DNA of 64,000 nucleotides. Source: an uncultured Acidimicrobiales bacterium (GTDB lineage: Bacteria; Actinomycetota; Actinomycetes; Mycobacteriales; QHCE01). Positions 474-43,597 of this stretch are shown piece by piece (positions within the stretch are counted from its first letter, which is position 1; each line of letters opens with the position of its first letter). Where the stretch lies: positions 281,652 through 345,651 of the forward strand of contig CAVTOA010000003.1 of assembly GCA_963736285.1 (NCBI GenBank), written 5' to 3'. The notes beneath the pieces were generated by a model. It did not search any database. It was given only the letters and a program-made list of their open reading frames with translations, and was not told the origin of the DNA. Made by a program: the position numbers and the translations under genes.

Positions 474-1745
474 CTACCAACCGATGGCCTGCAACATGGT
501 TTGAAACTTGGCGGATGTTTCGGCGAGTTCGAGCGCCGGCTCGGACGCGGGCATGATCCCTCCCCCAGCAAACAACCGCAGTGAATCACCTTGCACATCG
601 GCGCAACGAATCGTAATTCCCCATTCGCCATCGCCGCGAGCATCGGTCCAACCCACCGCCCCGGTATAGAACCCTCGATCAAAGGGTTCGCTGCGCTTAA
701 TGAAGGCCTGCGCCTCGGCGGTGGGCGTGCCGCAAATTGCGGGTGTGGGGTGTAGCGCCGTCGCCAATGTCAATGCGGAAACGGATGGGTCAATGATCTC
801 GCCAGTGATCATGGTCGACAAATGCCAGACCGTTGGCGTGCTAATCAACGACGGCTTGGCTGGAACATTGAGTCGCCGGCAGAAAGGGCGCAACCCATCC
901 ACCAACGCGTCAATGACGACCTGATGCTCTTCGCGGTCCTTTACTGACGCGTACAGCTCTCGAATGCGTCGCTGATCTTCCTCCGGGTCATCACTACGGG
1001 GAAGCGACCCGGCCAGCGGATTTGCGGCAACGCGAGATCCATACTTACTGACCAGCAATTCAGGGCTGGCTCCAATCAGGACGCGATTGCTATGCCGGCG
1101 CACCTGCCCGGCCGATTCGGACTCTATGCCGGTCTCCAGGGCCGGGAGGTTCACGGCAAATGTGTAGCCCTGCGAGTTTCTACGTGCGACATTTCGCAAG
1201 AGCTGGGCGACATCGACCGGCTCGGCAGAAAGTAACTCCAAAGAGCGCGATAGCACCACTTTGCGGAGCTCGCCCGCCTGCAGCGCAACCACTGCTTTGG
1301 CGACGTTCTCCTCATGTATCTGGGGCTCGGGAAGCTCCTGCAGCTGCCCATTACGGATAGCGGATCGATGCTCGAGTGACGCCGCCTGCGGATGCAATGG
1401 TCCAGCCCACCGAGGCGTGCGAACCAGCGAAAGACACGCGGGCCTAGCCGAATCGAACGGAAGCGCACCGATCACCAGCGGAGTCGGAGCCGAATGGTTG
1501 GAGAACTTCGCGCCGGCGCTCACGGCGGGCGTCTGGTCCGCGAGCAGTTGGTCTACCCGGCCGGCCAAGCCAGCATCGGGTATGGCCGACGCAGCTGGCA
1601 GCCACTCGCGATCGCCATCGGCGAGCAATGTCCGTTCGGGGGAGGCGAAAAACGATGAACTTGGCAAATATTCGTACAACAGAGACATCGCGGTTAGCTC
1701 GGGAGCCACACCTATCGCCATAAATCCCTCCGTTTGACTCCACAT
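474..1745 (-). CDS. isochorismate synthase (MenF/EntC family chorismate-binding enzyme)
   Basis: 423-aa ORF. C-terminal chorismate-binding signature (FDRGFYTGAVGW ... FAGGGIMPASEPALELAETSAKF). The true start may be an internal Met near 1721. Confidence 0.8.
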   Translation of the reverse strand: MWSQTEGFMAIGVAPELTAMSLLYEYLPSSSFFASPERTLLADGDREWLPAASAIPDAGLAGRVDQLLADQTPAVSAGAKFSNHSAPTPLVIGALPFDSARPACLSLVRTPRWAGPLHPQAASLEHRSAIRNGQLQELPEPQIHEENVAKAVVALQAGELRKVVLSRSLELLSAEPVDVAQLLRNVARRNSQGYTFAVNLPALETGIESESAGQVRRHSNRVLIGASPELLVSKYGSRVAANPLAGSLPRSDDPEEDQRRIRELYASVKDREEHQVVIDALVDGLRPFCRRLNVPAKPSLISTPTVWHLSTMITGEIIDPSVSALTLATALHPTPAICGTPTAEAQAFIKRSEPFDRGFYTGAVGWTDARGDGEWGITIRCADVQGDSLRLFAGGGIMPASEPALELAETSAKFQTMLQAIGW

Positions 1746-1772: not shown

Positions 1773-3035
1773 CTAGAAGGTGAAGGTACTCCCCACCGGG
1801 TCACTGGGAGTAAAGGTGGCCGACAGGGACGAGAAACTATTCACCATTGCCATCGACGCGTAGCGCTCAGAACCAACCTTCATCACCTTAAAATCGGGCA
1901 TTCTTTCGAGAACTGCACGCAGCATCACGTCAATTTGAATCCGGGCGAGGTGAGCACCAACGCAGTAGTGAATACCAAATCCAAATGCGGCATGCGGATT
2001 AGGCGAACGATCAAATTGCACCTGCTCGGGGCAATCAAACACCGCGGGATCGCGATTCGCGGCCGCAAACGACATCAATACCCGATCCCCTTTGCGAATC
2101 TGCTGCCCATCCAGCTCAACGTCGCGGGTCGCAGTTCGCGCAAGCGCTGCAACGGGAGGAAGAAAACGCAGAAACTCCTCTACTGCGGACGGGATCAACG
2201 ACGGGTCGTCGATGAGCATTTGCCGGTGGTCTGGATTGAGATACAACCAGTTGAGCGCGTTGGCTACCGCGCCCGTGGTGGTATTAACGCCGGCCGCAAG
2301 CACGAGCGTGCAGGTCGCCATCAGCCGATCGTCGCTGAGTGGTTTTCCATCGATTTCTGCGGTTGTCAACCGTGTCAGCAAGTCGTCTTTGGGGTCGGCA
2401 CGCCGCTTTGCCGCGGTTCGGCGCAACGAACGGGCAAGCATTTTGATCCCCTCGGCGGCTTCAAGATAGCGGTCACTACCGCCCGGGGCGTTATTAATGT
2501 CCAGCACTGGACCCGCATAGTGCTCCCACTCTTTGAGCGGGAGGCCCAGTATCTTCATCGTCAAAATTGCCGGTACCGGGCTCGCCAAATCACGCGCAAA
2601 ATCGATAGCACCCCGAGTGCACTGCCGGTCAAGACATGCGGTGGTGATGTCCTGAATAAAGGGACGCCACTTTTGTACTTGCTCGGCAGAAAATACGGGT
2701 TTTAGCAAGTTGTGGTACGCCATATACTCCGGCGGGTCGAGCTCAATGGGCACCTCCACGACTGGTCCAGCCGGAAGCGAGATGCCACCGTGATTGCCCT
2801 CCGCTGTAATATCATGCGCAGACGAGAACGTCGCATCGTCGCGGATCACTTCAGACAAAGCCTCGTAGCTGGACACTAACCAGAACCCGCCATGCGCTTC
2901 AGACCACGCAACTGGGCATTTGGCAAGGTTTTCATCCGAAACGTCCTGCCAGCGCGCGCGATATTCCGGCGAGTGATGGTCAAAGTCGATGACAGGCTTA
3001 GACGAAACAGCCTCTTCATAATCAGTACCTGTCAT
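1773..3035 (-). CDS. cytochrome P450
   Basis: Heme-binding loop FGFGIHYCVGAHLAR and EEFLRF (ExxR) motif. Start placed at the Met preceded by GGGAG (ORF track extends to 3047). Confidence 0.85.
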   Translation of the reverse strand: MTGTDYEEAVSSKPVIDFDHHSPEYRARWQDVSDENLAKCPVAWSEAHGGFWLVSSYEALSEVIRDDATFSSAHDITAEGNHGGISLPAGPVVEVPIELDPPEYMAYHNLLKPVFSAEQVQKWRPFIQDITTACLDRQCTRGAIDFARDLASPVPAILTMKILGLPLKEWEHYAGPVLDINNAPGGSDRYLEAAEGIKMLARSLRRTAAKRRADPKDDLLTRLTTAEIDGKPLSDDRLMATCTLVLAAGVNTTTGAVANALNWLYLNPDHRQMLIDDPSLIPSAVEEFLRFLPPVAALARTATRDVELDGQQIRKGDRVLMSFAAANRDPAVFDCPEQVQFDRSPNPHAAFGFGIHYCVGAHLARIQIDVMLRAVLERMPDFKVMKVGSERYASMAMVNSFSSLSATFTPSDPVGSTFTF

Positions 3036-3393
3036 CAGAACTCCCAATGCCGCAACAAAACTTGGCTAACATCACATAATACGACGTAATCTCAGGTCGA
3101 TGCCCATACTCAAAATGGCTCTGCGACGGCATTTTTGCGAAACCAGCACAGAAATGGCATTTAACCGACGCAGACAGTAATCGTGAACACTACCTCTACC
3201 GTGCCCGACAAACGCCCCAAATAGAAGAGCTAGTGCAGGCTTTTAACGGAGTCGTGCGATTACGCGAGCTCCTCCGAGGCTGGAAGAAACGCCACCGCCA
3301 CCTGAGAACCCACAGTGGCTCTCCAGGCGGCCACTCCGCAGCCGCACTCCCAGTTTCTATGAGCGGACTCCCACCAGTGGCGGGCCATCGGCA

Positions 3394-4106: not shown

Positions 4107-4330
4107 CTCGTCAACAAGCTCAATCGGCTCGGACACGCAAGCAAGCTTGCGTATCTCTCGCCTCAGTCGTGTGATCCTCGCTTAGCTCGTCAACAAGCTC
4201 AGTCAGCTCGGACACGCAAGCAAGCTTGCGTATCTCTCGCCTCAGTCGTGTGATCCTCGCTTAGCTCGTCAACAAGCTCAATCGGCTCGGACACGCAAGC
4301 AAGCTTGCGTATCTCTCGCCTCAGTCGCTT
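4107..4330 (-). repeat. 79-bp tandem repeat, about 2.8 copies, abutting the tmRNA 3' end
   Basis: Units start at 4107, 4186 and 4265 (period 79). Each contains the hairpin ACGCAAGC-AA-GCTTGCGT. The core is about 95% identical to the repeats next to tRNA-Leu at 43335-43507. Confidence 0.9.
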
Positions 4331-4703
4331 GTGGAGGTGGCGGGAATCGAACCCGCGTCCTTCGTCGCTTCAACAGGACTTCTCCGGGCGCAGCTTGCTG
4401 TGCCTCTACTCGGCCTCACCGATCCCGCAAGCAAGTCGGTGTGACAGGCCCAGTCGCTGTTTGATGTCCCAACGAACCCCGCGACCGAGTTTGTTGGTGC
4501 AGTCCCCTAGCTGATGCCAGGATCCGGGTCGGGAACGTCCCCGGTCTGACAGAGGTGCTTCGCTTTAAGCAGCGAGAGCAACCTCAGCGCGGTTATTAAC
4601 ATTGGCGCTTATTGGTTTGCGACACGTGGTTTACGAGATCATCGTCGCCTTCCTCGGCCCGCTTCCCCTGCCTCGACGTCCGAAGTCGAGACCTGTCACC
4701 CCC
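4331..4703 (-). ncRNA. ssrA: tmRNA (transfer-messenger RNA)
   Basis: Minus strand begins GGGGGTGACAGGTCTCGAC and ends GGGTTCGATTCCCGCCACCTCCA. The acceptor stem is 7 bp with a G3-U pair. Internal tag ORF GCC AAT GTT AAT AAC CGC GCT GAG GTT GCT CTC GCT GCT TAA gives ANVNNRAEVALAA. CCA is not encoded. smpB is nearby. Confidence 0.93.
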
Positions 4704-6653: not shown

Positions 6654-7130
6654 CTATTCCATACCTTTGTTACGACGACCCATCGCTCGCGCTATCTCGC
6701 GATCAGCGTCACGTTTGGCGAGCGTTTGGCGTTTATCGTAGGAGCGCTTGCCGCGCGCTAGCCCGATCTCCGCCTTCGCCCGACCATGCGAAAAATAGAG
6801 TTTGAGCGGGACAAGCGTGAGCCCCGCTTCATTGAGTTTGGTCGTGATACGAGCGATCTCACCACGATGCAGCAGTAGCTTGCGTACTCGCCGAACTGGG
6901 TGATTAGTCCACGTCCCCTGGGTGTATTCCGGGATATGCACCCCATGAAGGAACACTTCGCCATTATCGATAATGGCGAAACCGTCCACAAGCGACGCAC
7001 GCCCCGCTCGCAACGACTTTACCTCGGTGCCAGTAAGCACCAAGCCAGCCTCAAACGTCTCGATGATGGCATAGTCGTGGTGCGCCTTTCGGTTGGTTGT
7101 CACCACCGAACGCCCTTGCTCGCGCGCCAC
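6654..7130 (-). CDS. smpB: SsrA-binding protein SmpB
   Basis: 158 aa. [10 protein letters not shown] ... GTEVKSLR ... LVPLKLYF ... [13 protein letters not shown] are typical SmpB sequences. Confidence 0.95.
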
Positions 7131-7183: not shown

Positions 7184-8506
7184 TCACATCGGGAACCAGC
7201 CCAGCGGTTGCTTGGGTGCCCCATTGATTCGGACCTCAAAGTGCAGATGCGGACCTGTCGCAGCACCTGTCATGCCCACTTTGCCGATGGTCTGACCCTG
7301 GCTCACTTGCTGTCCCTTGTGGACCAATATCTGCGACTGATGCCCATAACACGTTGACACACCGGACGTCCCATTAATTGTGCCGTGAAGAATGCACGTG
7401 TAGTTACCGTAGCCGCGTTCCCAACCGGCGTATACGACAGTTCCGCCCGCGGCCGCCCATATAGGTGCACCCGTACCCGCCGCGAGATCTACCCCCGCAT
7501 GGAGCTGCCATACGTGGTAGTACGGATCGAATCTCCAACCGTAGTCACTGGATTTCCAGCCCACGACCGGCTTAATGAATCCACCGCTGCGCGATGGTGG
7601 CCCATAGCCACCCGAGGACGAAGAATGGCCGGACTGAGCTTGCTGCGCCTGCTGTAGCTGATCCTCAATCCGTCGAGACTCTTCTTGGAGTTCGTTGTAC
7701 TTCTGCTGACTCGCGTCCTTTTCCCGCTGGGCAGTCGTATAAGCCCGCTGGCTCTGGCTCACCAGGTCGTTAACCTTTTGTTTAGCCGTGTTCGCATCAG
7801 CCGCCTGCTGTTGAGCGTCCCTCAGCGCCTGCCGGGCTTGATCGTTTGCCTGATCTGCCTGCTGTTTGCTCTTCGTTACATCTGCACGCCGCTCTCCAGC
7901 GCGGAGCCGTGCCGCTTTCATGACGTCGATGTGGTCTTGCTGGTTCGCACCCAGGGCCCGCACGTATTCGACCGCGTCCACCACTTGCTGAGGATCCTTC
8001 GCCGCAAGCACCAGCGACGAGGAAAGATACCGCGCACTTTCATAGCTTTGTCGCGCAAATGACGCAAACTTTGCACGCGCGGCTTTCACGTCATTGTCAG
8101 CTTGGTCATAGCTACTCTGGGCTCGTTGTAGCTGCTGCTGTGCCGCCTCGGCATCGCGCTGCGTCTCATTTGCTCTTACTTGAGCCGCAATTACCTGGCC
8201 TCTTGCTTCGTCTGCGGCTTGCTGAGCCGCCGGCAGCTGCTGATTCGCCCGCGAGAAATCCGCCCAGGCCTGCTGAGCTTTACTCGTGGCATTCTCCAAA
8301 ACGGAGTCAGCTTGTTGTAGCTCCCGATCGACTCGGCTCTTATCCCCCGATGGGTCAGCCTTCGCCGAGCCACCGCCGGTAGCGATCACGCTGACGATCA
8401 GCGTGGCAAAGAAGATCCACCGCCACACCAAGCCGCGATCGTGGCCCGCCCGGGTGCGTTGATCGCTGTTCAGCGCTCTCCTACCGTTTGTGCCATTAAG
8501 CGTCAT
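7184..8506 (-). CDS. coiled-coil M23 (LytM-type) metallopeptidase, likely FtsEX-associated
   Basis: TM/signal, then about 250 aa of Gln/Ala-rich coiled coil, then a C-terminal M23 domain that retains HAGVDLAA and GPHLHFEV metal ligands. Immediately downstream of ftsE-ftsX. Confidence 0.85.
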   Translation of the reverse strand: MTLNGTNGRRALNSDQRTRAGHDRGLVWRWIFFATLIVSVIATGGGSAKADPSGDKSRVDRELQQADSVLENATSKAQQAWADFSRANQQLPAAQQAADEARGQVIAAQVRANETQRDAEAAQQQLQRAQSSYDQADNDVKAARAKFASFARQSYESARYLSSSLVLAAKDPQQVVDAVEYVRALGANQQDHIDVMKAARLRAGERRADVTKSKQQADQANDQARQALRDAQQQAADANTAKQKVNDLVSQSQRAYTTAQREKDASQQKYNELQEESRRIEDQLQQAQQAQSGHSSSSGGYGPPSRSGGFIKPVVGWKSSDYGWRFDPYYHVWQLHAGVDLAAGTGAPIWAAAGGTVVYAGWERGYGNYTCILHGTINGTSGVSTCYGHQSQILVHKGQQVSQGQTIGKVGMTGAATGPHLHFEVRINGAPKQPLGWFPM

Positions 8507-8624: not shown

Positions 8625-9506
8625 CTAGACCTTCACATACAACCGCAAGGTGCTCCAGCCGGTGATCGCGGCGATTGCGACCGCAACAAGGCCCAAAATT
8701 GGTCCAGTCACCATAATGTCGCTCCACTGAATGATCGGAATTAGCCCGCTGGTAAACACCGGTTTAAGCGCGCCGTCAATGAGCCACAGTTTGCTGACGA
8801 TGAGGGCAAACCAAGCGAGCACAGCCCCAATGAGTCCGGCGATCGCCGCCTCCAGCACGAATGGCAAACGCACATACCAGTTAGACGCACCGACGAGTTT
8901 CATAATGCTGACCTCGCGGCGGCGACTATACGCAGCCACCTGAATGGTGTTTCCGATCAGCAGCACCGCCGCCACACCTTGCAAGATGGCGACCACGAAG
9001 ACCGTGTTCTTAATGGCATCCACCATCGCAAACAGCTGGGTCACGATTTCTTGCTGACTAGAAACTCGGGATACACCGTCCTCGTGCCGATATTTATTGG
9101 ACACATCGGTGTAATCGCCTGGATCACGCAACTTAACCCGGAACGACGACGGCAACGCGCTGGCGTCTACACCAGACACCAAGTCCGGCGAGTTTTTGAA
9201 CAGCTCACGAAAACGCTTATAGGCCTGCTCTTTCGTCTCTAAAGCCACCTCGCGCACGCGACGGTCGTCTTTTAGCTGCTGCTCAAGCTTGTTTCGTTGG
9301 TCGTTAGACGCATCGTCGCGCAGATAAAACATCACCTCGACCTTGCCGCGAAGCAGATCCTTCGTTTTTTGGATCTGCACATACAGCAACCCGCCAGCGC
9401 CAAGCAGCGCCAATGAGATCGCAGTGGTGATGATCATCGCTACCGTCATGGTGACATTGCGCCAGAGGCCAGTCGCAGCCTCAGAAAAAACAAACTTTGC
9501 GCGCAT
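8625..9506 (-). CDS. ftsX: cell division permease-like protein FtsX
   Basis: 293 aa with four TM segments and an extracytoplasmic loop domain. Downstream of ftsE. Confidence 0.9.
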   Translation of the reverse strand: MRAKFVFSEAATGLWRNVTMTVAMIITTAISLALLGAGGLLYVQIQKTKDLLRGKVEVMFYLRDDASNDQRNKLEQQLKDDRRVREVALETKEQAYKRFRELFKNSPDLVSGVDASALPSSFRVKLRDPGDYTDVSNKYRHEDGVSRVSSQQEIVTQLFAMVDAIKNTVFVVAILQGVAAVLLIGNTIQVAAYSRRREVSIMKLVGASNWYVRLPFVLEAAIAGLIGAVLAWFALIVSKLWLIDGALKPVFTSGLIPIIQWSDIMVTGPILGLVAVAIAAITGWSTLRLYVKV

Positions 9507-10413: not shown

Positions 10414-11007
10414 GTGGCTAACTATTCCAATGCAGACAGTGACCTCGTCGACGCGATGACCAAGGCGCTAGTCCAGCTCCCACCCACCGAACAGTGGACT
10501 CGTATCCACGAGCACCTCGTGGCTGTCACGCAAGAATTAGCCACAGTGGGCTCCCATGCACACGCAGAGCCGGTAAAAAATGCCGCCGAGGCTATGCACC
10601 AAGCCACATCTCATCTTCAAGACGCACAGACCCATTACTCCATGGTCATCACAGAATTTGCACACGCCCTAGGCCGGACTATTGTTCCAGCGGGCGATAT
10701 CAAGCTCCCAACAATGCGACGCCCTCATCGCCCCAGTGGAACCAGCGCCGCCGCACTTAGTCAATTCTATTCGGACTGTCGCGAGGTGCTCATGTCCGAT
10801 TTGATAGGTCCAATTAGGACCAGCATCGCAACCGCATCCGGCGAGATAAACACCTGCCTAAAAATGGCACAGGATAAAGAAAAACCTGTTCCCCCGGCAG
10901 TACTTCCCGCATGCAGCGGCCTCATTACTTTGCACGCTAGCCTTGGGTTGCCCGCGATGAAACAGCTCAATGCCGCGAACGAGCTCCACACAAAAGCGAT
11001 GGTCTAG
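10414..11007 (+). CDS. hypothetical helical protein (opposite strand to all neighbours)
   Basis: 197-aa ORF with a non-ATG start in the track and no clear RBS. The first ~90 aa look like a two-helix hairpin. No family recognised. Confidence 0.4.
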   Translation: MANYSNADSDLVDAMTKALVQLPPTEQWTRIHEHLVAVTQELATVGSHAHAEPVKNAAEAMHQATSHLQDAQTHYSMVITEFAHALGRTIVPAGDIKLPTMRRPHRPSGTSAAALSQFYSDCREVLMSDLIGPIRTSIATASGEINTCLKMAQDKEKPVPPAVLPACSGLITLHASLGLPAMKQLNAANELHTKAMV

Positions 11008-11048: not shown

Positions 11049-12212
11049 TCAGCTTGCCGCGGTCTCTTTCTCGTGGCTTCTCCGCCACCGAATTCCGGCC
11101 TCGATAAAGTCGTCGATTTCGCCGTCAAATACAGCCTGCGGATTCCCGACTTCGTGACCCGTGCGGATGTCCTTCACCATCTGGTAGGGGTGCAATACAT
11201 AAGAACGCATCTGATTACCCCACGAGCCCGCTGAGTCGGTACGCAAAGCATCCATCTCCGCCTTTTGCTCTTGGCGGCGCAGCTCCAGCAAACGCGATTG
11301 CAACACCCTCATAGCCGCCGCGCGATTTTGGATCTGCGATTTCTCGTTTTGGCAGCTCACGACTATTCCACTTGGCACGTGCGTGATACGGACGGCCGAG
11401 TCAGTGGTATTTACGCTCTGCCCGCCAGGTCCCGATGAGCGGAATACGTCGACACGGATCTCATTTTCTGGGATTTCTACGTGGTCGGTCTGCTCCACAA
11501 CGGGCAGCACCTCTACCCCAGCAAAAGACGTCTGCCGGCGTCCCTGGTTGTCGTAGGAGCTGATCCGCACCATGCGGTGAGTGCCGCTCTCTACCGAGAG
11601 GGTCCCGTAGGCATAAGGGATCTTGACCGCGAACGTGGCTGACTTAATACCTGCCTCTTCCGCGTAGGAGATGTCGTACACCTCCGTCGGATAGCCGTGC
11701 CGTTCCGACCAGCGCAGATACATCCGAAGGAGCATCTCCGCAAAGTCTGACGCGTCTATCCCACCCGCTTGTGCGTGAATGTTCACCAGCGCTTCACGAG
11801 CGTCATAGTCGCCAGAAAGCAACGTACGAACTTCCAACTCGTCAATCGAAGACCGCAGCGACCGCAGCTCGGCAGTAACCTCATTTCGTACGCTCGAGTC
11901 TGACTCATCCTCTGCCAAATCGAACAGAACCCGACAGTCATCCAGCCGACGGCGCAAGCTACCCACTCTGTTCAGTTCGCCTTGAACAAACGACAGTCGA
12001 GAGGTAACTCTCTGTGCTCTTTCTTGATCGCCCCACAGATCCGGAGCCGCTGCCTCCTGATTGAGCTCAGCTAACTCGCCACGCAATTTGTCGAGATCAA
12101 GGACCGTTTCAACGGAAGAGAGCGTGGAGTCAAGGTCTTTGAGTTCGTCGCGTACGTCTACAGATGCCACGTTGCCCAGCGTACGGGGTAGAGGCGTTAG
12201 CTCGTGGACCAT
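11049..12212 (-). CDS. prfB: peptide chain release factor 2 (uninterrupted ORF, variant SSY instead of SPF)
   Basis: GGQ motif (SGPGGQSVN) and an RF2-type domain 2 sequence, [20 protein letters not shown], alignable to E. coli LVRKSPFDSGGRRHTSF. No CUU UGA frameshift site. Confidence 0.9.
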
Positions 12213-12952: not shown

Positions 12953-13411
12953 TCAACGCAAAGGTGAACGCGCTTCACTGACCGCGGTCCTTACCAAACC
13001 GTGAGAGAACCCAAACACCGTCCCGAAGGGGATTTGAACCAGGCGGCGGCATCTCACCATTACTGCTCTCCGGTCCACAGTGGCGGCCATGACTAGGGAC
13101 GCGTCATCAGTGAGCATGTACGAGCGATATTCACCAAGCGCATGCTGAGCGGCCTCCGTAGCGACGGGAAGCGCGTCGCCCTCCCGCACGCCAACCGCGT
13201 AGACGGCATCCGAGTCAAGCCCGGATGCAGCGGCGATGGCACCTCCGTCGCAGTCTGCTTGCAGGTCACGCTGGGCAAGGAACGCTGACGATGCGGCAGC
13301 TACACCGGCCGTGAGCAAACTCACGATGAGGAAGCACACCAATATAAGGGGAATACTGCTTCCCGCATCACCGTGGATCCGTGCGTGAATACCCGCCAAG
13401 AGCCGTCGCAT
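12953..13411 (-). CDS. TadE/TadG-like pilus assembly (pseudopilin-like) protein
   Basis: Start set at the Met that overlaps the upstream stop (TGATG). N-terminal hydrophobic segment IPLILVCFLIVSLLTAGVAAA. Last gene of the tad operon. Confidence 0.6.
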   Translation of the reverse strand: MRRLLAGIHARIHGDAGSSIPLILVCFLIVSLLTAGVAAASSAFLAQRDLQADCDGGAIAAASGLDSDAVYAVGVREGDALPVATEAAQHALGEYRSYMLTDDASLVMAATVDRRAVMVRCRRLVQIPFGTVFGFSHGLVRTAVSEARSPLR

Positions 13412-13920
13412 CAGACCGCCGCCGTCCGATACGTATCCACATGCACTACAAACCTGCCGGTCACAGTGTTGCGACTGCTGTCCAAAAAGCTTGGCACCCC
13501 CGGAACCGTGAATACCTGAACCACGCATGCGACAAACTCTGCCCCCGGCTCCAACGTGGCCGCACCAGGCGCTGGCGCAACCGGCCCGTTGTCGCACGAT
13601 TGATTGTGTTGGACAAAGCGAAGGAGGGCCTCGCTCGTATCAAGGTTTTGGTCTTGCAACGCCAACCGCACCGCAAAAACCGCACGGTCCACCCCGGTGT
13701 TCACGTTGTCCGCGCTAGCCACAGCACGTCCGGCCTCACGAGCGGCCTGGGTAACAGCGAAGACATTCCGCTGTAGCTCGAACACCGCCACCAACAGGTA
13801 CAGCAGTGGAACCAACACCATGATGCCAAGAAAGACAAATTCGATCGTCGCGGCACCGGTCTCGTCTCGGAACCGACCCAGCACACCACGAAGATTCCTA
13901 GTGCGAGATGGGAGCGTCAA
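13411..13920 (-). CDS. TadE-like protein
   Basis: TadE N-terminal motif GAATIEFVFLGIMVLVPLLYL. Overlaps both neighbouring genes (ATGA and TGATG). Confidence 0.75.
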   Translation of the reverse strand: MTLPSRTRNLRGVLGRFRDETGAATIEFVFLGIMVLVPLLYLLVAVFELQRNVFAVTQAAREAGRAVASADNVNTGVDRAVFAVRLALQDQNLDTSEALLRFVQHNQSCDNGPVAPAPGAATLEPGAEFVACVVQVFTVPGVPSFLDSSRNTVTGRFVVHVDTYRTAAV

Positions 13921-14354
13921 TTTCTTCCCTCCTTGACCGCATGGCCCCGCACCTCTAGTGGCAACACGTCACCCAATGGAGCAAAAAAGACCGGCAACGC
14001 GCCGTCACATCGAACCTCAACGGTCACAATCCCGCCGGTTCCCGTTGCTTGCCTGCCGGTACAGGAGAGCTGGGACGACGCCGATTCGCCTACGCCACGG
14101 CCGAGCAACACCCGGGCGCGACTCGCCCCAGCTGCTGAGGACACATTGGCTGCGGCGGCATAACGTGCGCCCTCAGCAACGCTCGCTGCCGCAACATTGC
14201 GGATGTACAGATATACCGCCACCTGCAGAATCGCCAACGTCAGGAAGATGAGCAGCACAGAGACCAAGGCAAACTCAACGAGCGTGGAGCCCTCCTCTGA
14301 CATCTTTGCGGTCGACACGTGCGCTCTGCGCAAGAAGGACGCCCGGAACGCCAT
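13917..14354 (-). CDS. TadE-like protein
   Basis: TadE motif GSTLVEFALVSVLLIFLTLAILQ, within the tad operon. Confidence 0.75.
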   Translation of the reverse strand: MAFRASFLRRAHVSTAKMSEEGSTLVEFALVSVLLIFLTLAILQVAVYLYIRNVAAASVAEGARYAAAANVSSAAGASRARVLLGRGVGESASSQLSCTGRQATGTGGIVTVEVRCDGALPVFFAPLGDVLPLEVRGHAVKEGRN

Positions 14355-14360
14355 CTCCGC

Positions 14361-14576
14361 CTAACCACCAGTGCCTGAAACCACTTGGCCAATGGCGGTT
14401 TGAACAGCACCAATGATCGCGCCCTTAAACACCGCAAAGACAGCAACAACCAGGCCCGCGGTCATCACCGTAACCATGACCCAGCCAGGAACATCGCCAC
14501 GATCCAGGCCAAGGCGTCGCAGTGACGATATGCGAGCTCGAACGGCCGTGATGGGCCAGCAACGTTGCATCCGCAT
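14361..14576 (-). CDS. Flp-type small pilin candidate
   Basis: Start chosen at the ATG preceded by GGAGG (ORF track extends to 14711). 71 aa with a charged leader ending RG, then DVPGWVMVTVMTAGLVVAVFAVF as a hydrophobic helix. Sits between tadC and the tadE genes. Confidence 0.6.
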   Translation of the reverse strand: MRMQRCWPITAVRARISSLRRLGLDRGDVPGWVMVTVMTAGLVVAVFAVFKGAIIGAVQTAIGQVVSGTGG

Positions 14577-14666
14577 GCACGCCTCCTTCATTGGGAGTAC
14601 AAATAGGATTGATTGACTGCACAGCGTAAAGGAAATGACCGACTGAGTGAGACCGCTGACTGCGCT

Positions 14667-14681
14667 CTGTGGATAACTCCC
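14667..14681 (-). promoter_or_regulatory. conserved box GGGAGTTATCCACAG upstream of flp
   Basis: Reads GGGAGTTATCCACAG on the gene strand, about 90-105 nt upstream of the flp start. The same 15-mer occurs at 17963-17977. Confidence 0.6.
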
Positions 14682-14721
14682 ATGCGGCTCGCGGTAGGCA
14701 AGCCAAATCACGCCCGACCCT

Positions 14722-15663
14722 TTATTGCGTCAACACGGTGATGCTCGCCAAGCCCGGGTAAAGAGCAAAAAGGACAGTAACGGGCAAGATCAGAAAGACC
14801 ACCGGTACCATCATCAAGATTTCCTTTCTCCCTCCCGCTGCGAGCAATGCACGCTTGCCCGCTTCTCGAACATCGGCCGCTTGTGCACGCAATAGCTCGG
14901 CCAATGGAGTTCCTCGCTCTAACGCGATCGCCACGCCATCAACAAATCTTGCCAATGGCGGAAGACTCGTGCGTTTGGAAAGTCGCTCCAATGCGGCAGG
15001 CAAGGTGACGCCCTCTCGCGTATTTGAAATGACGATCTTCAACTCTTTAGAGAGCTCACCGCCGCACAAGCGACATACGCGCTCCAGCGCCGCAAGGGGT
15101 GCTTCACCTGCGGTAACCGCAAGCGCGAGGAATTCCGCGACTATTGGAAACTCGGCGAGCATGTCCTGCTCACGACGCCGAACCCGCATGCTGAGCCACC
15201 AGTCATAGCCCAATGCACCCGCCAGAAATCCCGCGATCGCAAGCACGATGAGGGCTATGAGACTCACCGAACTGGCCGCAATAGATAGCAGCACAGATGA
15301 CAAGCCACCCATTACAAATCCAACAACGCCCCACACCAGTTGTTCAACTCGAAAATCCTCGACGCTCGCCGATGAGCCCAACGCGCTTAACCTGCGCTGC
15401 ACTGACCTGGAACCGCCAAGCGATCGCTCCATCATCGCCGCACCTCGCTCAAGAGCCGGCCGCAAAACCGCTAGAGGAACACCCCAAAGATGAAGCGTTT
15501 CATCGCTCTGAGCCAAGTTAGACGACGGCTGACGTGCACGAAGATAGGGAGCTAGGCGATCGTCGAGCCTCACCCGCCTCATTGGCGGTGAATACGCAAT
15601 AGCCACCAGGAGACCGGTGGCTCCAAAGAGGCCCAGTAACGCTCCTAACGCGACAGAGTTCAC
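14722..15663 (-). CDS. tadC: type II secretion F-family pilus assembly membrane protein TadC
   Basis: 313 aa polytopic protein with a T2SSF-like domain. 4-nt overlap with tadB. Confidence 0.8.
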   Translation of the reverse strand: MNSVALGALLGLFGATGLLVAIAYSPPMRRVRLDDRLAPYLRARQPSSNLAQSDETLHLWGVPLAVLRPALERGAAMMERSLGGSRSVQRRLSALGSSASVEDFRVEQLVWGVVGFVMGGLSSVLLSIAASSVSLIALIVLAIAGFLAGALGYDWWLSMRVRRREQDMLAEFPIVAEFLALAVTAGEAPLAALERVCRLCGGELSKELKIVISNTREGVTLPAALERLSKRTSLPPLARFVDGVAIALERGTPLAELLRAQAADVREAGKRALLAAGGRKEILMMVPVVFLILPVTVLFALYPGLASITVLTQ

Positions 15664-16526
15664 TGTAATACTCGCTTCTCTTCAGGCAAACGGCCAATGC
15701 GAACCATTGCGCGATAAGCAAGGATGCTCACAACTGCCCCAAGTAACAGCAGAATTCGGCCCGCAAAAGACTCGTACGCGCTCAAAGTGGCCGACTGAGT
15801 CGCAAGGAGAAGCAGCACGAGCCAAGGGGCAGCGACCGCAAGGCGAGCAGCATTAATGGTCCAATTTTGACGAGTCTCAAGCTCGGCGCGGGTACGACTC
15901 TCGTCACGCAGAAATGTCGATAGAGTCCGTAACAGCCGACCTAAATCTGTTCCCCCTACTTCGCGTGCGAGCCGTAACGACTCGCAGATCCGATCACCAA
16001 CGGGATCTGCGAGGTGAGTCTTGAGCCGATCGAGGCAATCCGAAAATTTGCCGGTAATTCGGTAATCGCTGGCAAAGCGGCCGAATGCGGCCTGGAGGGG
16101 CGCTGGACCCCGTACTGCCAAAGCCGCGACACCTTCTGGCAAGGAGAGGCCCGCGCGGACGGCGGACGCCAGACTGTCCACAACCTCCGGCCATACCTCG
16201 CGGAAATCAAGTCTGCGCCTTCTTCTTAGGCTACCGATCATCCCGACAGGAGAGAAAAACCCGAAGAATACAAAGCATGTGGCCACCGAGATGCTCCGGC
16301 TCAATGCCAACGTCGCCATACCTGCTAGCAAGCCCGCTGCCAGCTGTAGGCACATGACCTGCCACGGGCCCACTCCTGTGATTCCTGCTTGCCGCAGTGC
16401 TGCGGTTCGTCGCGCTTTCCACTTCGCAAGAGAGTCGGGTCGCTCCGGTCGCACGGGCGCACGACTGTGCCACACAAGCAGTACACCCAAGCCAAACAGT
16501 AACCCGATGACGGCGCCCATTAGCAC
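15660..16526 (-). CDS. tadB: pilus assembly membrane protein TadB
   Basis: 288 aa polytopic T2SSF-like protein. Overlaps tadA by 7 nt. Confidence 0.8.
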   Translation of the reverse strand: MLMGAVIGLLFGLGVLLVWHSRAPVRPERPDSLAKWKARRTAALRQAGITGVGPWQVMCLQLAAGLLAGMATLALSRSISVATCFVFFGFFSPVGMIGSLRRRRRLDFREVWPEVVDSLASAVRAGLSLPEGVAALAVRGPAPLQAAFGRFASDYRITGKFSDCLDRLKTHLADPVGDRICESLRLAREVGGTDLGRLLRTLSTFLRDESRTRAELETRQNWTINAARLAVAAPWLVLLLLATQSATLSAYESFAGRILLLLGAVVSILAYRAMVRIGRLPEEKRVLQ

Positions 16527-17881
16527 TCACCATCTCCCGCCGAAACAGAAGTCACCCGATATTTCGGCTCACTTCGGACAGCGTTGAGCAGCCGGACGAT
16601 ATCGATGCCCGCCCGGGTGAACCGCTCCATATTGGATGGGAAGCCATCTGCTCGTACGAGCTCATTGCCTCGAGTCGCAAAGATGTCGACTGATTCGATG
16701 ACTGTGCCCTCAACCCTGCCAGAGAGGGCTACGACTTCCCCTACTCGCCGCCTGCCCTGACTATCGCTGGTGAGGTGAACCACCAGATCAACACTCGCCG
16801 CGACAGTCGGGACAACGAAAGAGGCCGCGACATTGCTGCCTGCCAGCAGCGGGAGCGTACACAGTTTGGTAATCGCTTCTCGGGCTGAATTGGCATGGAC
16901 ACTCGCCATCCCCGGTAGGCCAGAGTTCAATGCTATGAGCAAGTCTAAGCACTCTGCTTGGCGAACCTCACCAACAATAATTCGCGAGGGGCGCATTCGG
17001 AGGGCTTCGCTAATGAGTCTGCGAAGAGGAATCTCCCCCGTTCCTTCCAAGTTTGGCTGACGCGTTTGCATCGGCACCCAATCCCGGGCATTTAGCCGTA
17101 GCTCAAAGACCTCCTCACAACTGATAATTCGATCATGCTGCGGAATCGCACCAGCCAAGCAATTTAAAAGAGTTGTCTTGCCGGCTTGAGTGCCCCCAGC
17201 CACAACGACATTGAGCCCAGCAATTACCGCCGCCTCTAGGAAACACGCTGCGTGCGCGGTCATAGTTCGAAGTGCGACCAGCTCCGTGAGGGACCGGGCT
17301 TTCACGATGAACTTTCGGATATTGACTGCCCAATGTTCCCGTGTGATGTCAGGTATGACTACGTGCAGGCGAGAACCATCTGGCAAAGTGGCATCAACAA
17401 ACGGGGTAGAAAGGTCAATGCGCCGCCCGGTGTGTTTAAGCATCCGTTCGACCAGCTCAGTTACCTGTTGGTAAGTGAGGACAACTGTTGTCAATTCGCT
17501 GCGATTATTGCGCGAGATAAAAACGTGACCGGGATCGTTGATCCATATCTCCTCGACTTCTGGATCGTCCAAAAACTGTTGCAAAGGACCGAGACCAGCA
17601 ACGGCGTCAAAAAGCATTTTTGCAACGCACTCGGCGTCAGACAGGGGCGGCGATATGCCCGCAGCAGCTTGTGTCGCATAGTCGACGATGGCCTGATCAA
17701 TTAGTGCGCGCACTGTGGCGGGCTCACGGGCAGGGTCGATGCCGTCGCGTCGGATCAGCTCATGTAGCACTGACTCCACAATGGCATATGAACCTACGGT
17801 GTTCTCTGCCCTTGTGTGACCTACATGGGCCCGTGATGCAGACTGCTTCGAGATACTGGTCAACGTGTTGGTTAATGCCAC
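16520..17881 (-). CDS. tadA: Tad/Flp pilus secretion ATPase TadA/CpaF
   Basis: 453 aa. Walker A GGTQAGKTTLLN, a CEEVFEL region and a RIIVGEVR box typical of VirB11/CpaF ATPases. Confidence 0.9.
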   Translation of the reverse strand: MALTNTLTSISKQSASRAHVGHTRAENTVGSYAIVESVLHELIRRDGIDPAREPATVRALIDQAIVDYATQAAAGISPPLSDAECVAKMLFDAVAGLGPLQQFLDDPEVEEIWINDPGHVFISRNNRSELTTVVLTYQQVTELVERMLKHTGRRIDLSTPFVDATLPDGSRLHVVIPDITREHWAVNIRKFIVKARSLTELVALRTMTAHAACFLEAAVIAGLNVVVAGGTQAGKTTLLNCLAGAIPQHDRIISCEEVFELRLNARDWVPMQTRQPNLEGTGEIPLRRLISEALRMRPSRIIVGEVRQAECLDLLIALNSGLPGMASVHANSAREAITKLCTLPLLAGSNVAASFVVPTVAASVDLVVHLTSDSQGRRRVGEVVALSGRVEGTVIESVDIFATRGNELVRADGFPSNMERFTRAGIDIVRLLNAVRSEPKYRVTSVSAGDGEC

Positions 17882-18135: not shown

Positions 18136-21100
18136 GTGGAATTCCCCATCACTTTCGTGGACTCTTGCGGCGATGAGCATGACCTAACTATCTCTGCGGC
18201 TCACACCACGACTGCGCAGGCCCTCGTGGAAAAGCTTCGCGAAATCGACCCGGACGCCCGCATCGACCGGCTTTACCATCCACAAGGACAATTGCGGGCC
18301 ACCCAGCGCATAGGAGAGCCACCCCTCATAGCCGGAATTCGACTCCAGGCCATGCCCGTCGTCTCGTCACGTGAACCGTCTACTACAGACAAGAAGCGTC
18401 AACGCCTCACCCTCACGGCTTCCCAGGACTTAACCTGTTCTCAATATCCTCCTCATGGCTCGCTACTGCTCCATGTCATAGCAGGACCAGACAGCGGCCA
18501 GGTACACCCGCTCACAAGCCGTAGGGCTACCACAGACAAAGCCCGGAAGTCGACTTCTACATCAGACAATTCGCGCAGCATCACGGTTGGCCGCAGCGAT
18601 TGCGCCGACGTTTCAATTGAAGACCCAGATGTATCGAGTCTTCATGCAAAGATAACAATTCGACCCGGATCTCTGCAGCTATCTGACTTGGGCTCAACCA
18701 ATGGCACGACGTTACAGGGAAGAGCCATTGATGGGCCTGTTGAGCTGTGGCCAGAACAGGTTATTCGGTGCGGCGGAAGCTTATTTGTAGTCTCGACATC
18801 GACATTCCCACCATTGCAACTCAGACCAAACCGCTCTGGCTTTTTGATGCTTGGAAGGCCACCTAGGGTCACTCCTCGCCATGTGCCTCCGGAGTTCAGT
18901 TTTCCTGCTCCCCCAATATCCCCACCTCGCACTCCCATACCGTGGCTATTGGTGATTACACCTTTGCTGATCGGAACTGCCTTCTATTGGATTAGTGGAG
19001 CATTACATGGCGATGGCGCGTACTTTCTTTTGCTCACTTTCCTCTCTCCTCTCATGGTTTTTCTCGGTGGACTAACCGACAAGATTGCTCGGTTTAAGGC
19101 TCACCGAAAAGCAATGTTGCGGCACAATCACGTTGTCGCCGATATAACGCAGGGGATAGCTGCTGCGGTCAGCGACGAGCAACAACGGCTGAGAACCGCA
19201 TTTCCCAGTCCCGCCTTACTCTTCCTCGTGATCTGTCACAGAAATTCGCGCCTGTGGGAACGGCGGCCGCGGGATCACGACAACCTGGTGCTTAGGGTTG
19301 GAACAGCAAACCTCCCCTCCGGACTGCGGATTCATGGAGAAACTGGCAACCGCACTCGCCAGCCGGTGAGCTTGCTTGCCTCACACCGGAAACCTCGGGA
19401 GGCACCCTCTCGAACCCTGGCAAGCGTGCCGGCCACGGTGCCACTCCGTGACGTGGGTGTGTTCGGAGTAGCAGGGCCGAGCCGCCTCGGAGTGGTCCGC
19501 TTCCTTGTCGCGCAACTGGCCGGACTCCACCACCCCAAAAATCTTCGCCTAGTGCTACTGGCAAATAACGACGCACCACAGCGCTGGAAATGGTTTCGGT
19601 GGTTGCCACACGCTGCCACCTCTGGCTCTCATCCGAATGGAGCAACCTTCCACATAGGACTATCGCCAGCTCAAAGGAACAGCAGAGTCGGCGAGCTTGG
19701 ATCGCTCATCACGGAGCGCATTTCCCACGACCCAGAAACGCTCCGGCAGCCAAACCATCACGGGCTCGTAGTGCGGCCAAATTATGTCGTGGTAATCGAC
19801 GACGCTGACCTGCTAAGAACCGAGGAAGGCGTTGCTCGCTTACTCATCGACGGCCCGCGTGTTGGAGTCTATGTGATCTGCCTCACCGAAGATTCGCTGC
19901 GCCTTCCTGAAGAATGCGATGCAACTCTGATCACTACTAATGCACCGGGCGAAGGTGCGACCCTACAGATCCGAAATCAGGCGACTCTATCGTCGATCAC
20001 CACCGAGTCTGTATCCCCAGATTGGACGGACACCATTGCGCGCGCATTGGCTCCACTCCACGACGCGGCCCCTGAAGAGGACCACCTTGACCTACCGCCC
20101 CAAGTCTTCCTAGAGGCGTTCTTGTCAGAGATTCACGCCAGGCACCGCGTTTACGTTGAAGCGCGCACCCCTTCCCGCAGACACTGGTCCAAAGCTCATC
20201 AGTCGCATGTCGAGCCATTAGTGCCGGAGAACGTGCACCAGCATTGGCTCGATAAGCCACGCTCATCGCTTGTTCCGGTCGGCATTGGCTCGGCCGGAAC
20301 GGTCGCTATCGACCTCATAAAAAACGGTCCACACGCTCTGATCGCAGGAACGACAGGGTCAGGAAAGTCGGAACTTTTGCAAACCATCATCCTTGGATTG
20401 GCCCTGGGTAATCACCCTCACGAGCTTTCTTTCATACTCATTGACTACAAAGGTGGCGCGGCTTTTTTCGAATGCGACGACCTGCCACACACGGTTGGGC
20501 TTGTCACCGATCTCGACAGTCAATTGACGAGACGTGCTTTGTCCTCGCTTCGGGCGGAGCTACGAAACCGGGAAAAAATCCTCGCGGCTCACCAGATGAA
20601 AAACCACGAAAGCTACTGCATCGCACGCGACCAGGCCTCGCCGCATACACAACCGCCCCGCGCTCACACTTCTACCTGGCCTCACATGGCCCGTCTCGTC
20701 ATCGTTGTCGACGAGTTTGCCGCACTGGCTCAAGAACTCCCTGAGTTCATCACAGGGCTTGTCGACATAGCGCGACGCGGACGTTCTCTAGGAGTGCACC
20801 TCATCCTCGCAACTCAACGTCCTGCGGGCGTGGTTTCGACGGAGATCCGTGCGAACACCGCGCTCCGAATGTGCCTGAGAGTGAACGATCCAGCTGAAAG
20901 TAGCGACGTCATCGGGGCAGTCGATGCCGCTCAACTCAGTCACACGCGGCCTGGTCGTTGTTGGATCCGGACCGGCAATACGTTGCAGCAGGTACAAGTT
21001 GCCTACGGCGGTGTCACTCCCCCCGTCGCCACAAGTGCCTCAGATGTCGACATAAGACATATGCCGTGGGAGGCGCTAGGAGACTCCTTGCAGGAGTTCA

Positions 21101-43507: not shown

Positions 43508-43511
43508 CGTG

Positions 43512-43597
43512 TGCCCGGGACGGGACTCGAACCCGCATGCCCGTTTTAAGGGCAGCCGTTTTTAAGACGGCCGTGTCTGCCATTCCACCACCCAGGC
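43512..43597 (-). tRNA. tRNA-Leu (anticodon UAA)
   Basis: Hand-folded cloverleaf with acceptor GCCTGGG/CCCGGGC, anticodon stem GCCGT/ACGGC, loop CTTAAAA, a long variable arm, and T-loop GGTTCGAGTCC. CCA is not encoded. Confidence 0.9.

What the first reader, a model, noticed from the sequence alone, without database searches (positions are those of the whole stretch)
11553..11561. Release factor 2 has SSY where the conserved SPF stop-codon-recognition tripeptide should be
The codons AGC TCC TAC (read directly from the minus strand) give [20 protein letters not shown]. This aligns without gaps to E. coli LVRKSPFDSGGRRHTSF and, as I recall it, to the usual actinobacterial ISPFDNQ.RRQTSF. SPF is the established tripeptide anticodon of RF2 that specifies UGA/UAA. 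Two adjacent substitutions fall exactly in this motif while the surrounding sequence and the GGQ motif are canonical. Two such changes are unlikely to be random error and could alter stop-codon specificity or efficiency.
Basis: partly seen in the sequence, partly recalled or inferred. Interest (0 to 1): 0.7.

Follow-up and report, generated by a model that had tools for sequence, protein, structure and literature searches.

The report
Release factor 2 with Ser-Ser-Tyr motif
The housekeeping release factor 2 of an uncultured actinobacterium really does carry Ser-Ser-Tyr where textbooks show Ser-Pro-Phe, but this belongs to a recurrent natural pattern (SAY, SKY, SEY in relatives), and the window still uses UGA as its commonest stop codon, so the genetic code is probably unchanged.

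Summary
Window 11049..12212 (-) is a full-length RF2, and codons AGC TCC TAC (11561..11553) give [22 protein letters not shown] aligns without gaps onto SPF of solved RF2 structures.

It is the syntenic housekeeping copy (prfB-ftsE-ftsX-smpB-ssrA) and is under strong purifying selection. It keeps the residues that the literature and my recollection tie to stop-codon reading and catalysis: the first Ser, the Thr of RRQTSF, the GG of helix alpha5 and GGQ.

The two substitutions have different weight:
- **F->Y** is ordinary; SPY is published as common in bacteria.
- **P->S** is the unusual part. Published work calls this Pro universal in RF2.

It is not an isolated oddity:
- The closest relative (84% identical, syntenic) has SAY, one nucleotide away.
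- Other relatives have SAY.
- A large clade of soil metagenome genomes labelled Streptosporangiaceae has SKY.
- Distant representatives have SEY or SEF.
- All 129 actinobacterial sequences without Pro also have Tyr and a Leu->Met change five residues upstream.

UGA remains the commonest stop codon in the window (42%, including prfB's own) and behaves as a true terminator. An altered specificity is therefore not supported, though small changes in efficiency or specificity are not excluded. The presence of RF1 could not be tested.

Verdict: a real, apparently undescribed variant of a known motif, of moderate interest.

The parts
11049..12212 (-). prfB, peptide chain release factor 2. It is a 387-aa ORF from the first ATG; the true start may be the GTG about 15 codons downstream, where homologues begin. 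It is a single ORF with no programmed +1 frameshift and ends in TGA.
   Evidence: TIGR00020, 485 bits vs cut-off 370; PDB RF2 chains, E = 3e-100; alignment with relatives.
11553..11561 (-). Codons AGC TCC TAC = Ser218-Ser219-Tyr220. They occupy the position of the SPF 'tripeptide anticodon' (E. coli S205-P206-F207).
11571..11573 (-). ATG = Met214 (HRM). The position is Leu in nearly all SP[FY]-type RF2s and Met in all 129 actinobacterial RF2s without Pro. It co-varies with the motif.
11529..11531 (-). ACG = Thr228 of RRQTSF, equivalent to E. coli T215, which reads the third stop-codon base. It is conserved.
   Evidence: the role of T215 is from PMC5776981.
11418..11426 (-). GGC GGG CAG = Gly263-Gly264-Gln265, the canonical GGQ peptidyl-tRNA hydrolysis motif.
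11760..11768 (-). Ala149-Gly150-Gly151 (AQAGGIDA), the tip of helix alpha5. The GG here is the site that contacts the first stop-codon base. It is invariant among relatives.
   Evidence: the GG contact with codon position 1 is from PMC1586002.
9583..10263 (-). ftsE, downstream syntenic neighbour of prfB.
8625..9506 (-). ftsX.
6654..7130 (-). smpB.
4329..4703 (-). ssrA (tmRNA). The tag is ANVNNRAEVALAA and its reading frame ends in TAA.

Best explanation
This is the functional housekeeping RF2 of an uncultured actinobacterium with 59% G+C. Its genome is known here only as an unnamed NCBI/ENA contig of 1.5 Mb. Its stop-codon recognition loop carries a lineage-specific version of the tripeptide, Ser-Ser-Tyr.

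Shown here: the gene is intact, syntenic and under purifying selection. Every other decoding or catalytic element that I checked is unchanged. The same position is Ala, Lys or Glu in other natural RF2s, almost always together with Tyr at the third position and Met in place of Leu five residues upstream.

Inferred: the middle residue does not read the codon. Like the freely variable x of the RF1 motif PxT, it probably shapes or stiffens the loop. Once Tyr and Met are in place, Pro becomes dispensable, and A<->S is then a one-nucleotide drift (GCC<->TCC). The factor most likely still terminates at UGA and UAA, because UGA is the window's most used stop codon and RF2 is the only factor known to read it.
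For: Identity and integrity:
- TIGR00020 scores 485 bits.
- PDB RF2 chains match over the full length at E = 3e-100 with no gap in the loop.
- Against the nearest relative dN = 0.13 while synonymous sites are saturated (pS = 0.80).

Housekeeping locus:
- The order is Tad genes, padR, prfB, ftsE, ftsX, M23 peptidase gene, smpB, ssrA.
- The same order is found in relative L081 and in the SKY loci.
- There is no second class-I release factor in the window.

Not an isolated error:
- P0001/L081 (84% identical, syntenic, 59.1% G+C) has SAY with codons AGC GCC TAC.
- P0002, P0017, P0038, L090 and L149 also have SAY.
- All 120 best hits to an SKY query are SKY.
- Codon use varies synonymously within the SKY clade: AAG/AAA, TAC/TAT, TCC/TCG/AGC.

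Coupling:
- Only three alignment columns separate all RF2s without Pro from SP[FY] RF2s: L->M at 214, P->X at 219, and Y at 220.
- In 150 representatives clustered at 50% identity, none of the 135 Pro-containing RF2s has Met (133 have Leu), while 6 of 9 without Pro have Met. These include SEY proteins only 42-45% identical to the query.

Code unchanged:
- Stop codons in the window are TGA 21, TAG 17, TAA 12.
- prfB ends in TGA at the same C-terminal position as its homologues.
- TGA-terminated ORFs meet the next in-frame stop after a median of 25 codons, against 25.5 for TAA.

Literature:
- The Ser of SPF is the residue tied to second-base reading (PMC5776981, PMC6821328).
- SPY is regarded as non-disruptive (PMC3472500, PMC1586002).
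- The RF1 motif is PxT with a variable x (PMC11903333); PQT and PET are seen.
Against: - No biochemical data exist for any RF2 with a residue other than Pro at this position, in the literature I could search.
- Pro was described as universal at this position in RF2 (PMC1586002), which implies a constraint whose relaxation may have a functional meaning.
- Nearby single changes in E. coli RF2 do alter specificity: S205P, F207T and E167K (PMC11903333).
- Loci from the lineages without Pro show somewhat less TGA and more TAG than SP[FY] loci of matched G+C (51-55% vs 63% TGA; 31-36% vs 25-28% TAG). This is not significant within either G+C bin (p about 0.2), and it is confounded by phylogeny and by crude ORF calling.
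- The structural contact between Met214 and residues 219/220 is inferred from co-variation only; I had no coordinates.
- SSY itself was seen in this one genome only.
Confidence: 0.72

Rival explanations
1. The Met...Ser-X-Tyr loop is a functionally distinct RF2 design. It might read UGA more weakly, giving more read-through or recoding, or it might have relaxed third-base discrimination and so contribute to UAG termination. Stop-codon usage in these lineages would then have begun to shift in response.
For: - Neighbouring single substitutions change the specificity of E. coli RF2: S205P gives UAA only; F207T and E167K give omnipotence (PMC11903333).
- The loss of Pro co-occurs with two other changes in separate lineages, which suggests selection on loop properties.
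- TGA is lower and TAG higher in SKY loci (53% / 34%) and in the window (42% / 34%) than in SP[FY] loci (64% / 25%).
Against: - The difference in stop usage is not significant within matched G+C bins, and it is confounded by phylogeny.
- TGA is still the most frequent stop and terminates prfB itself.
- Ser218 and Thr228 are retained.
- Tyr at the third position is common with Pro in ordinary bacteria (PMC3472500).
Confidence: 0.17
2. The second Ser is a base-calling or assembly error, and the true sequence is SAY (GCC), as in the nearest relative.
For: SSY was found in this single genome only. It differs from the SAY of L081 by one substitution.
Against: - The site is not in a homopolymer, and a consensus substitution error is unlikely.
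- The same 387-aa protein is recorded in both NCBI and ENA, from a single contig.
- Even if this were true, the Pro would still be absent, so the essence of the finding would stand.
Confidence: 0.06
3. This prfB is a decaying or secondary copy, and a canonical SPF RF2 elsewhere in the genome does the work.
For: Only 64 kb of a contig of at least 1.5 Mb could be examined. At least one cultured actinomycete (Bailinhaonella thermotolerans, WP_119930273.1) has a divergent RF2-like protein with SEF that may be an extra copy.
Against: - The gene is in the canonical prfB-ftsE-ftsX-smpB-ssrA position.
- It is full length with all motifs, and dN is far below dS.
- It is 75-84% identical to ordinary actinobacterial RF2s.
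- No locus examined holds two RF genes.
Confidence: 0.04

Closest known systems
Canonical bacterial RF2 (prfB; TIGR00020; e.g. the solved RF2 structures PDB 9fy1/6szs, E. coli 1gqe, T. thermophilus 4v5e)
   Same: - Full-length match covering domains 1-4.
- GGQ motif.
- GG at the tip of helix alpha5.
- A recognition loop of identical length.
- The first Ser of the tripeptide and the Thr of RRxTSF.
- The genomic position upstream of ftsEX-smpB.
   Different: The tripeptide is SSY, not SPF. The Pro described as universal in RF2 (PMC1586002) is replaced by Ser. Leu five residues upstream (E. coli L201) is Met.
SPY-type RF2 (the SP(F/Y) variant of Baranov et al. 2006; 'nearly one-third of eubacteria' in Duarte et al. 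2012)
   Same: Tyr at the third position. SPY occurs among the closest relatives (Cryptosporangium, some Streptomyces), so it is a plausible evolutionary intermediate.
   Different: SPY proteins keep Pro and Leu (HRLVRISPY). The window has HRMVRISSY.
SAY, SKY and SEY RF2s of uncultured Actinomycetota
   Same: The same Met...Ser-X-Tyr architecture, the same [10 protein letters not shown] context and the same housekeeping synteny.
   Different: The middle residue is Ala, Lys or Glu. Ser at this position was seen only in the window.
PrfH / RFH (TIGR03072), the class-I release-factor homologue with an 'SXY' motif
   Same: The tripeptide matches SXY, Ser-any-Tyr (PMC1586002).
   Different: According to PMC1586002, PrfH lacks domain 1, has a recognition loop three residues shorter, has GP instead of GG, and has Arg after the motif. 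The window protein has domain 1, a full-length loop, GG and Asp. It scores only 97.6 bits against a cut-off of 166.65.
RF1 (PxT motif)
   Same: In RF1 the middle residue of the tripeptide is naturally variable (A, V, Q, E). This is the behaviour now seen for RF2 in these lineages.
   Different: The first and third residues here are of the RF2 type (Ser, aromatic). The RF1 models score below their cut-offs (256 vs 400 bits).

Membership tests
RF2 (prfB) | Whole-protein match to the curated RF2 model above its cut-off, and better than to RF1 or PrfH | tested here: met
   TIGR00020 scores 485.4 bits (cut-off 370). The RF1 models score 256 and 252 bits, below their cut-offs, and PrfH scores 97.6.
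RF2 (prfB) | GGQ peptidyl-tRNA hydrolysis motif | tested here: met
   [16 protein letters not shown] at residues 260-275.
RF2 (prfB) | SPF (or SP[F/Y]) tripeptide in the recognition loop | tested here: not met
   The tripeptide is SSY. Ser is kept, Pro is replaced by Ser, and Phe is replaced by Tyr, which is an accepted variant. The loop length and flanks are unchanged.
RF2 (prfB) | Other elements that contact the stop codon: GG at the tip of helix alpha5 and Thr in RRxTSF | tested here: met
   AGG at 149-151 and T228 are invariant in the alignment with relatives.
RF2 (prfB) | Orthologous genomic position (in actinobacteria, prfB-ftsE-ftsX-smpB-ssrA) | tested here: met
   ftsE lies next to prfB in 77 of 80 named actinobacterial (mostly) genomes.
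RF2 (prfB) | Termination activity at UGA and UAA but not at UAG | not testable with these tools
   Only indirect evidence is available: TGA is the commonest stop codon and behaves as a true stop.
RF2 (prfB) | Programmed +1 frameshift in prfB (present in many bacteria; not a defining feature) | tested here: not met
   The gene is a single uninterrupted ORF. The aligned relatives are likewise single full-length proteins.
PrfH (RFH) | No domain 1, a recognition loop shortened by 3 residues, GP instead of GG, and a score above the TIGR03072 cut-off | tested here: not met
   97.6 bits against a cut-off of 166.65. The match to the RF2 model starts at residue 25, so domain 1 is present. The loop is of full length and GG is present.
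RF1 (prfA) | PxT tripeptide and a score above the RF1 model cut-offs | tested here: not met
   The tripeptide is SSY. The scores are 256 and 252 bits against cut-offs of 400 and 423.

The most novel reading that the evidence does not exclude
Met...Ser-X-Tyr (X = Ser, Ala, Lys or Glu) could be an alternative, independently recurring architecture of the RF2 decoding loop with altered termination properties. For example, it might have reduced efficiency at UGA or some activity at UAG. Abundant soil actinobacterial lineages would then have a measurably different balance between termination and read-through, or a reduced dependence on RF1.
Probability: 0.12. Interest if true: 0.7.

Novelty: new variant of a known kind. 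Interest (0 to 1): 0.4.

Why it matters
The SPF tripeptide is the textbook 'protein anticodon' of RF2, and its proline has been described as universal. This finding shows that whole lineages, including an abundant clade of soil genomes labelled Streptosporangiaceae, run their housekeeping RF2 without that proline while still using UGA as a stop codon.

This gives natural test cases for what the proline does, with the Leu->Met and Phe->Tyr changes as candidate compensators. Those test cases are relevant to current efforts to re-engineer RF2 specificity for recoded genomes, such as S205P/E170K in the one-stop-codon E. coli.

It also has a practical use. Annotation or code-inference pipelines that treat 'SPF absent' as a sign of a defective RF2, or of UGA reassignment, would misjudge these genomes.

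Tried and rejected
- **Short-peptide database search.** A 40-aa query around the motif returned a single 44-aa fragment (P0121, SKY). The word index does not work for short queries, so one capped search was largely wasted.
- **Genome-contig scan.** It found neither the source genome nor named genomes without Pro.
- **Cluster look-ups.** They show only an unnamed 1,497,830-bp NCBI/ENA contig. The look-up of encoding contigs did not hold the window protein.
- **UGA reassignment.** Rejected, for three reasons. TGA ends 21 of 50 filtered ORFs. prfB and domain-complete proteins such as the M23 peptidase end naturally at TGA. The downstream frames close quickly.
- **PrfH (SXY motif).** Rejected on score, the presence of domain 1 and loop length.
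- **Single origin of all RF2s without Pro.** Neighbour-joining bootstraps with the motif columns masked gave 0 of 100 for monophyly. WINDOW+P0001 was supported at 98% and the SKY clade at 100%. A single-protein tree at 75-80% identity is weakly resolved, so I treat 'at least two origins' as likely rather than proven.
- **Literature on the roles of Pro206 and Phe207.** Korostelev 2008, Weixlbaumer 2008 and Uno 2002 are not held. I recall that Ito et al. 2000 found the first and third residues to determine specificity and the middle one not to, but I could not verify this and do not use it as evidence.
- **Structure prediction.** Not run, because the tool returns no coordinates and so could not test the Met214-loop contact.

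Full report
**1. Observation**

The minus strand of the window at 11561..11553 reads AGC TCC TAC. It lies within a 387-aa ORF at 11049..12212 (-), whose product contains ...[26 protein letters not shown]... and ...[16 protein letters not shown]....
- The protein scores 485 bits against the NCBIfam RF2 model TIGR00020 (cut-off 370). It falls below the cut-offs for RF1 (256 and 252 bits) and PrfH (97.6 bits).
- Against PDB sequences it matches RF2 chains over its whole length (E = 3e-100 for 9fy1/6szs). '[19 protein letters not shown]' aligns to 'hrlvrispfdssgrrhtsf' without gaps.

SSY (S218-S219-Y220 of the ORF) therefore occupies exactly the SPF position (E. coli S205-P206-F207).

**2. Which copy, and is it alive?**

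The neighbourhood runs as follows: Tad/Flp pilus genes, a PadR regulator gene, prfB, a small lineage-specific ORF on the other strand, ftsE, ftsX, an M23 peptidase gene, smpB, a DUF2207 gene and ssrA. Several points show that this is the housekeeping RF2 locus.
- prfB-ftsE-ftsX(-smpB) is the arrangement in the named actinobacterial (mostly) genomes fetched. ftsE is adjacent in 77 of 80.
- tblastn with the RF2 protein finds no other class-I release factor in the 64 kb.
- The nearest relative is protein P0001, 84% identical, on ENA contig ERZ25039463:contig_86322 (locus L081, 59.1% G+C against 58.9% for the window). It has the same gene order.
- Between the two prfB genes dN = 0.13 while synonymous sites are saturated (pS = 0.80). 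The gene is therefore under strong purifying selection.

The source genome is in the collection only as an unnamed NCBI/ENA contig of 1,497,830 bp. The organism is an uncultured actinobacterium. Its closest named RF2s come from metagenome-assembled genomes labelled Mycobacteriales/Corynebacteriales and from Cryptosporangium.

**3. How unusual is SSY?**

Among the 120 closest database clusters the tripeptide is SPF in 101, SPY in 15 and SAY in 4, the last including P0002, which carries RRQTCF.

The F->Y half of the finding is ordinary.
- Baranov et al. write the RF2 motif as SP(F/Y) (PMC1586002).
- Duarte et al. state that SPY occurs in nearly one-third of bacteria and is not disruptive, because the discriminating residue is the Ser (PMC3472500).

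The P->S half is the unusual part. Baranov et al. state that Pro is universal at this position in RF2 (PMC1586002). I found no paper describing an RF2 without it.

**4. It is part of a wider natural pattern**

The nearest relative has SAY, encoded AGC GCC TAC. This is one nucleotide from the window's AGC TCC TAC.

I scanned JGI metagenome contigs for S-[codon not starting with C]-[F/Y]-DNQGRRQT.
- A database search with one SKY protein returned 120 of 120 SKY proteins. The named ones are all metagenome-assembled genomes labelled 'Streptosporangiaceae bacterium'.
- These genes also sit in prfB-ftsE-ftsX-smpB synteny.
- The motif codons vary synonymously among them: AAG/AAA, TAC/TAT, TCC/TCG/AGC. 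The residues are therefore maintained by selection in many independent assemblies.

An unbiased sample came from the 150 best representatives of clusters at 50% identity. It contains SPF 130, SPY 3, SPT 2, SKY 6, SEY 2 and SEF 1, plus a few RF1 sequences with PQT or PET. Loss of the Pro is therefore rare but recurrent. SSY itself was seen only in this window.

**5. Co-variation**

I compared 129 actinobacterial RF2s without Pro against 191 with SP[FY].
- Only three alignment columns are shared by every lineage without Pro and are rare in the rest: Leu->Met at residue 214 (HRL->HRM), the Pro position itself, and Tyr at 220.
- All 129 have both Met and Tyr. Only 2 of the 191 SP[FY] proteins have Met.
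- In the broad representative set, none of the 135 Pro-containing RF2s has Met (133 have Leu), whereas 6 of 9 without Pro do. These include SEY proteins only 42-45% identical to the query.
- Neighbour-joining bootstraps with the motif columns masked give 98% for WINDOW+P0001 and 100% for the SKY clade, but 0% for monophyly of all proteins without Pro.

The tree is weakly resolved. Taken with the distant SEY cases, it suggests that the Met/X/Tyr combination arose more than once. That points to structural coupling rather than shared ancestry alone. The physical contact is an inference, because I had no coordinates to measure.

**6. Is the code or the specificity changed?**

All the other elements tied to decoding are intact: the Ser of the tripeptide, the Thr of RRQTSF and the GG at the helix alpha5 tip. 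For the roles, see PMC5776981 (S205 and T215), PMC6821328 (Ser206 allows A or G at position 2) and PMC1586002 (GG contacts position 1). These residues are invariant in the alignment.

Stop-codon usage among 50 filtered ORFs of the window is TGA 21, TAG 17 and TAA 12.
- prfB itself ends in TGA at the same C-terminal position as its homologues.
- TGA-terminated ORFs meet the next in-frame stop after a median of 25 codons, against 25.5 for TAA.
- UGA is therefore a real and frequent terminator, so something must read it. RF2 is the only factor known to do so (PMC1586002).

SKY-clade loci use TGA 53%, TAG 34% and TAA 13%. SP[FY] loci use 64%, 25% and 12%. Within matched G+C bins the difference persists in direction but is not significant (p about 0.2 in each bin). 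It is also confounded by phylogeny and by crude ORF calling. I record it as a weak hint only.

Neighbouring substitutions in E. coli RF2 do change specificity: S205P leaves UAA only, and F207T and E167K give omnipotence (PMC11903333). A subtle functional shift therefore cannot be excluded without assays.

**7. Most likely mechanism**

The factor works as an ordinary RF2. Ser218 reads A or G at codon position 2, Thr228 reads A at position 3, and GGQ catalyses release.

The middle residue behaves like the x of the RF1 motif PxT, which is naturally A, V, Q or E (PMC11903333). That suggests it is a loop-shaping residue rather than a base-reading one. In these lineages Tyr220 and Met214 plausibly take over the stabilising role of Pro. 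After that the position drifts (A<->S is one nucleotide) or is re-selected (K, E).

The intact gene, the synteny, the selection, the recurrence, the co-variation and the use of UGA as a stop are shown here. The structural compensation and the unchanged kinetics are inferred. My confidence in this explanation is about 0.72.

**8. Rivals**

- Altered efficiency or specificity, about 0.17.
- A single-base error, with SAY as the true sequence, about 0.06. The Pro would still be absent.
- A secondary or decaying copy, about 0.04.

The presence of prfA, or of a second prfB elsewhere in the genome, could not be tested.

**9. Comparison with what is known, and verdict**

The protein is a member of the RF2 family on every tested criterion except the literal SPF tripeptide. 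It is not PrfH, despite PrfH's SXY motif. PrfH lacks domain 1, has a shorter loop and has GP for GG (PMC1586002), and the window protein fails the PrfH model.

I class it as a new variant of a known kind. It is a real departure from a motif regarded as near-universal, and it was apparently undescribed in the literature I could search. It is embedded in a larger unrecognised pattern (Met...S-[A/S/K/E]-Y) that includes an abundant soil clade.

Its functional speculation is not supported by stop-codon usage, although it has not been refuted biochemically. Interest is moderate (0.4). The finding offers natural material for dissecting the role of the SPF proline and is relevant to RF2 engineering, but it most likely does not signal a change in the genetic code.

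Noticed in passing
Loci L082-L201 (JGI metagenome contigs); proteins P0134-P0253: A large clade of soil and peat metagenome RF2s reads [19 protein letters not shown], with Lys in place of the 'universal' Pro. The NCBI entries are labelled 'Streptosporangiaceae bacterium' and come from metagenome-assembled genomes. The genes sit in normal prfB-ftsE-ftsX-smpB synteny. One member (L149) has SAY.
   Followed up: partly
Proteins P0286 and P0326 (cluster representatives; Logan contigs of 7.4 and 4.2 kb): Two natural RF2 representatives read HRLVRISPTDAKKRRQTTF, i.e. SPT. F207T is a change reported to make E. coli RF2 omnipotent (PMC11903333). These could be naturally omnipotent RF2s. Their organism and RF1 status are unknown.
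   Followed up: no
Proteins P0344 and P0363 (SEY), P0287 (SKY with HRL), P0297 (SEF): More distant RF2 representatives (42-49% identical) also lack the Pro. SEY occurs with HRM, and SKY occurs once with HRL. SEF (HRRVHISEFDTQRRRQTGF) is found in Bailinhaonella thermotolerans WP_119930273.1. This last protein is divergent enough to be a possible second copy in that genome.
   Followed up: partly
window 10414..11007 (+): A 197-aa ORF with no Pfam match lies between prfB and ftsE on the opposite strand. Its only detected homologue (41% identity) is at the same place in the nearest relative, L081 (11392..11991). It interrupts the usual prfB-ftsE adjacency.
   Followed up: partly
window 18136..22824 (+): A 1562-aa protein has an N-terminal FHA domain, an FtsK/SpoIIIE ATPase domain and a C-terminal AAA domain. 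It lies next to the Tad/Flp pilus gene cluster (about 12953..17881).
   Followed up: no
Stop-codon usage: window and loci L001-L201: Lineages whose RF2 lacks Pro use TAG more (about 34%) and TGA less (42-53%) than SP[FY] lineages (25% and 64%). The trend persists in G+C-matched bins but is not significant (p about 0.2), and it is confounded by phylogeny.
   Followed up: partly
L081 13918..15311: In the nearest relative the M23 peptidase gene is called as two genes (382 aa and 82 aa), whereas the window has one 440-aa ORF (7184..8506). This is probably a frameshift error in that assembly or a recent disruption.
   Followed up: no
Protein P0121 (JGI, 44 aa, on a 38-kb contig): This gene call is annotated as RF2 but covers only [44 protein letters not shown]. 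It is a truncated or frameshifted SKY-type prfB.
   Followed up: no
window 4329..4703 (-) and 43511..43597 (-): The tmRNA carries the tag ANVNNRAEVALAA and its reading frame ends in TAA. tRNA-Leu(UAA) is the only tRNA gene in the 64 kb.
   Followed up: yes
window 1773..3047 / 474..1745 and 24598..25359 / 22897..24537 (-): Two TAG-terminated ORFs are followed by the next gene in the same reading frame, giving 432 and 566 codons to the next in-frame stop. The downstream ORFs each carry an independent full Pfam domain (chorismate-binding enzyme; aldehyde dehydrogenase). I take this as chance frame coincidence, not read-through.
   Followed up: partly
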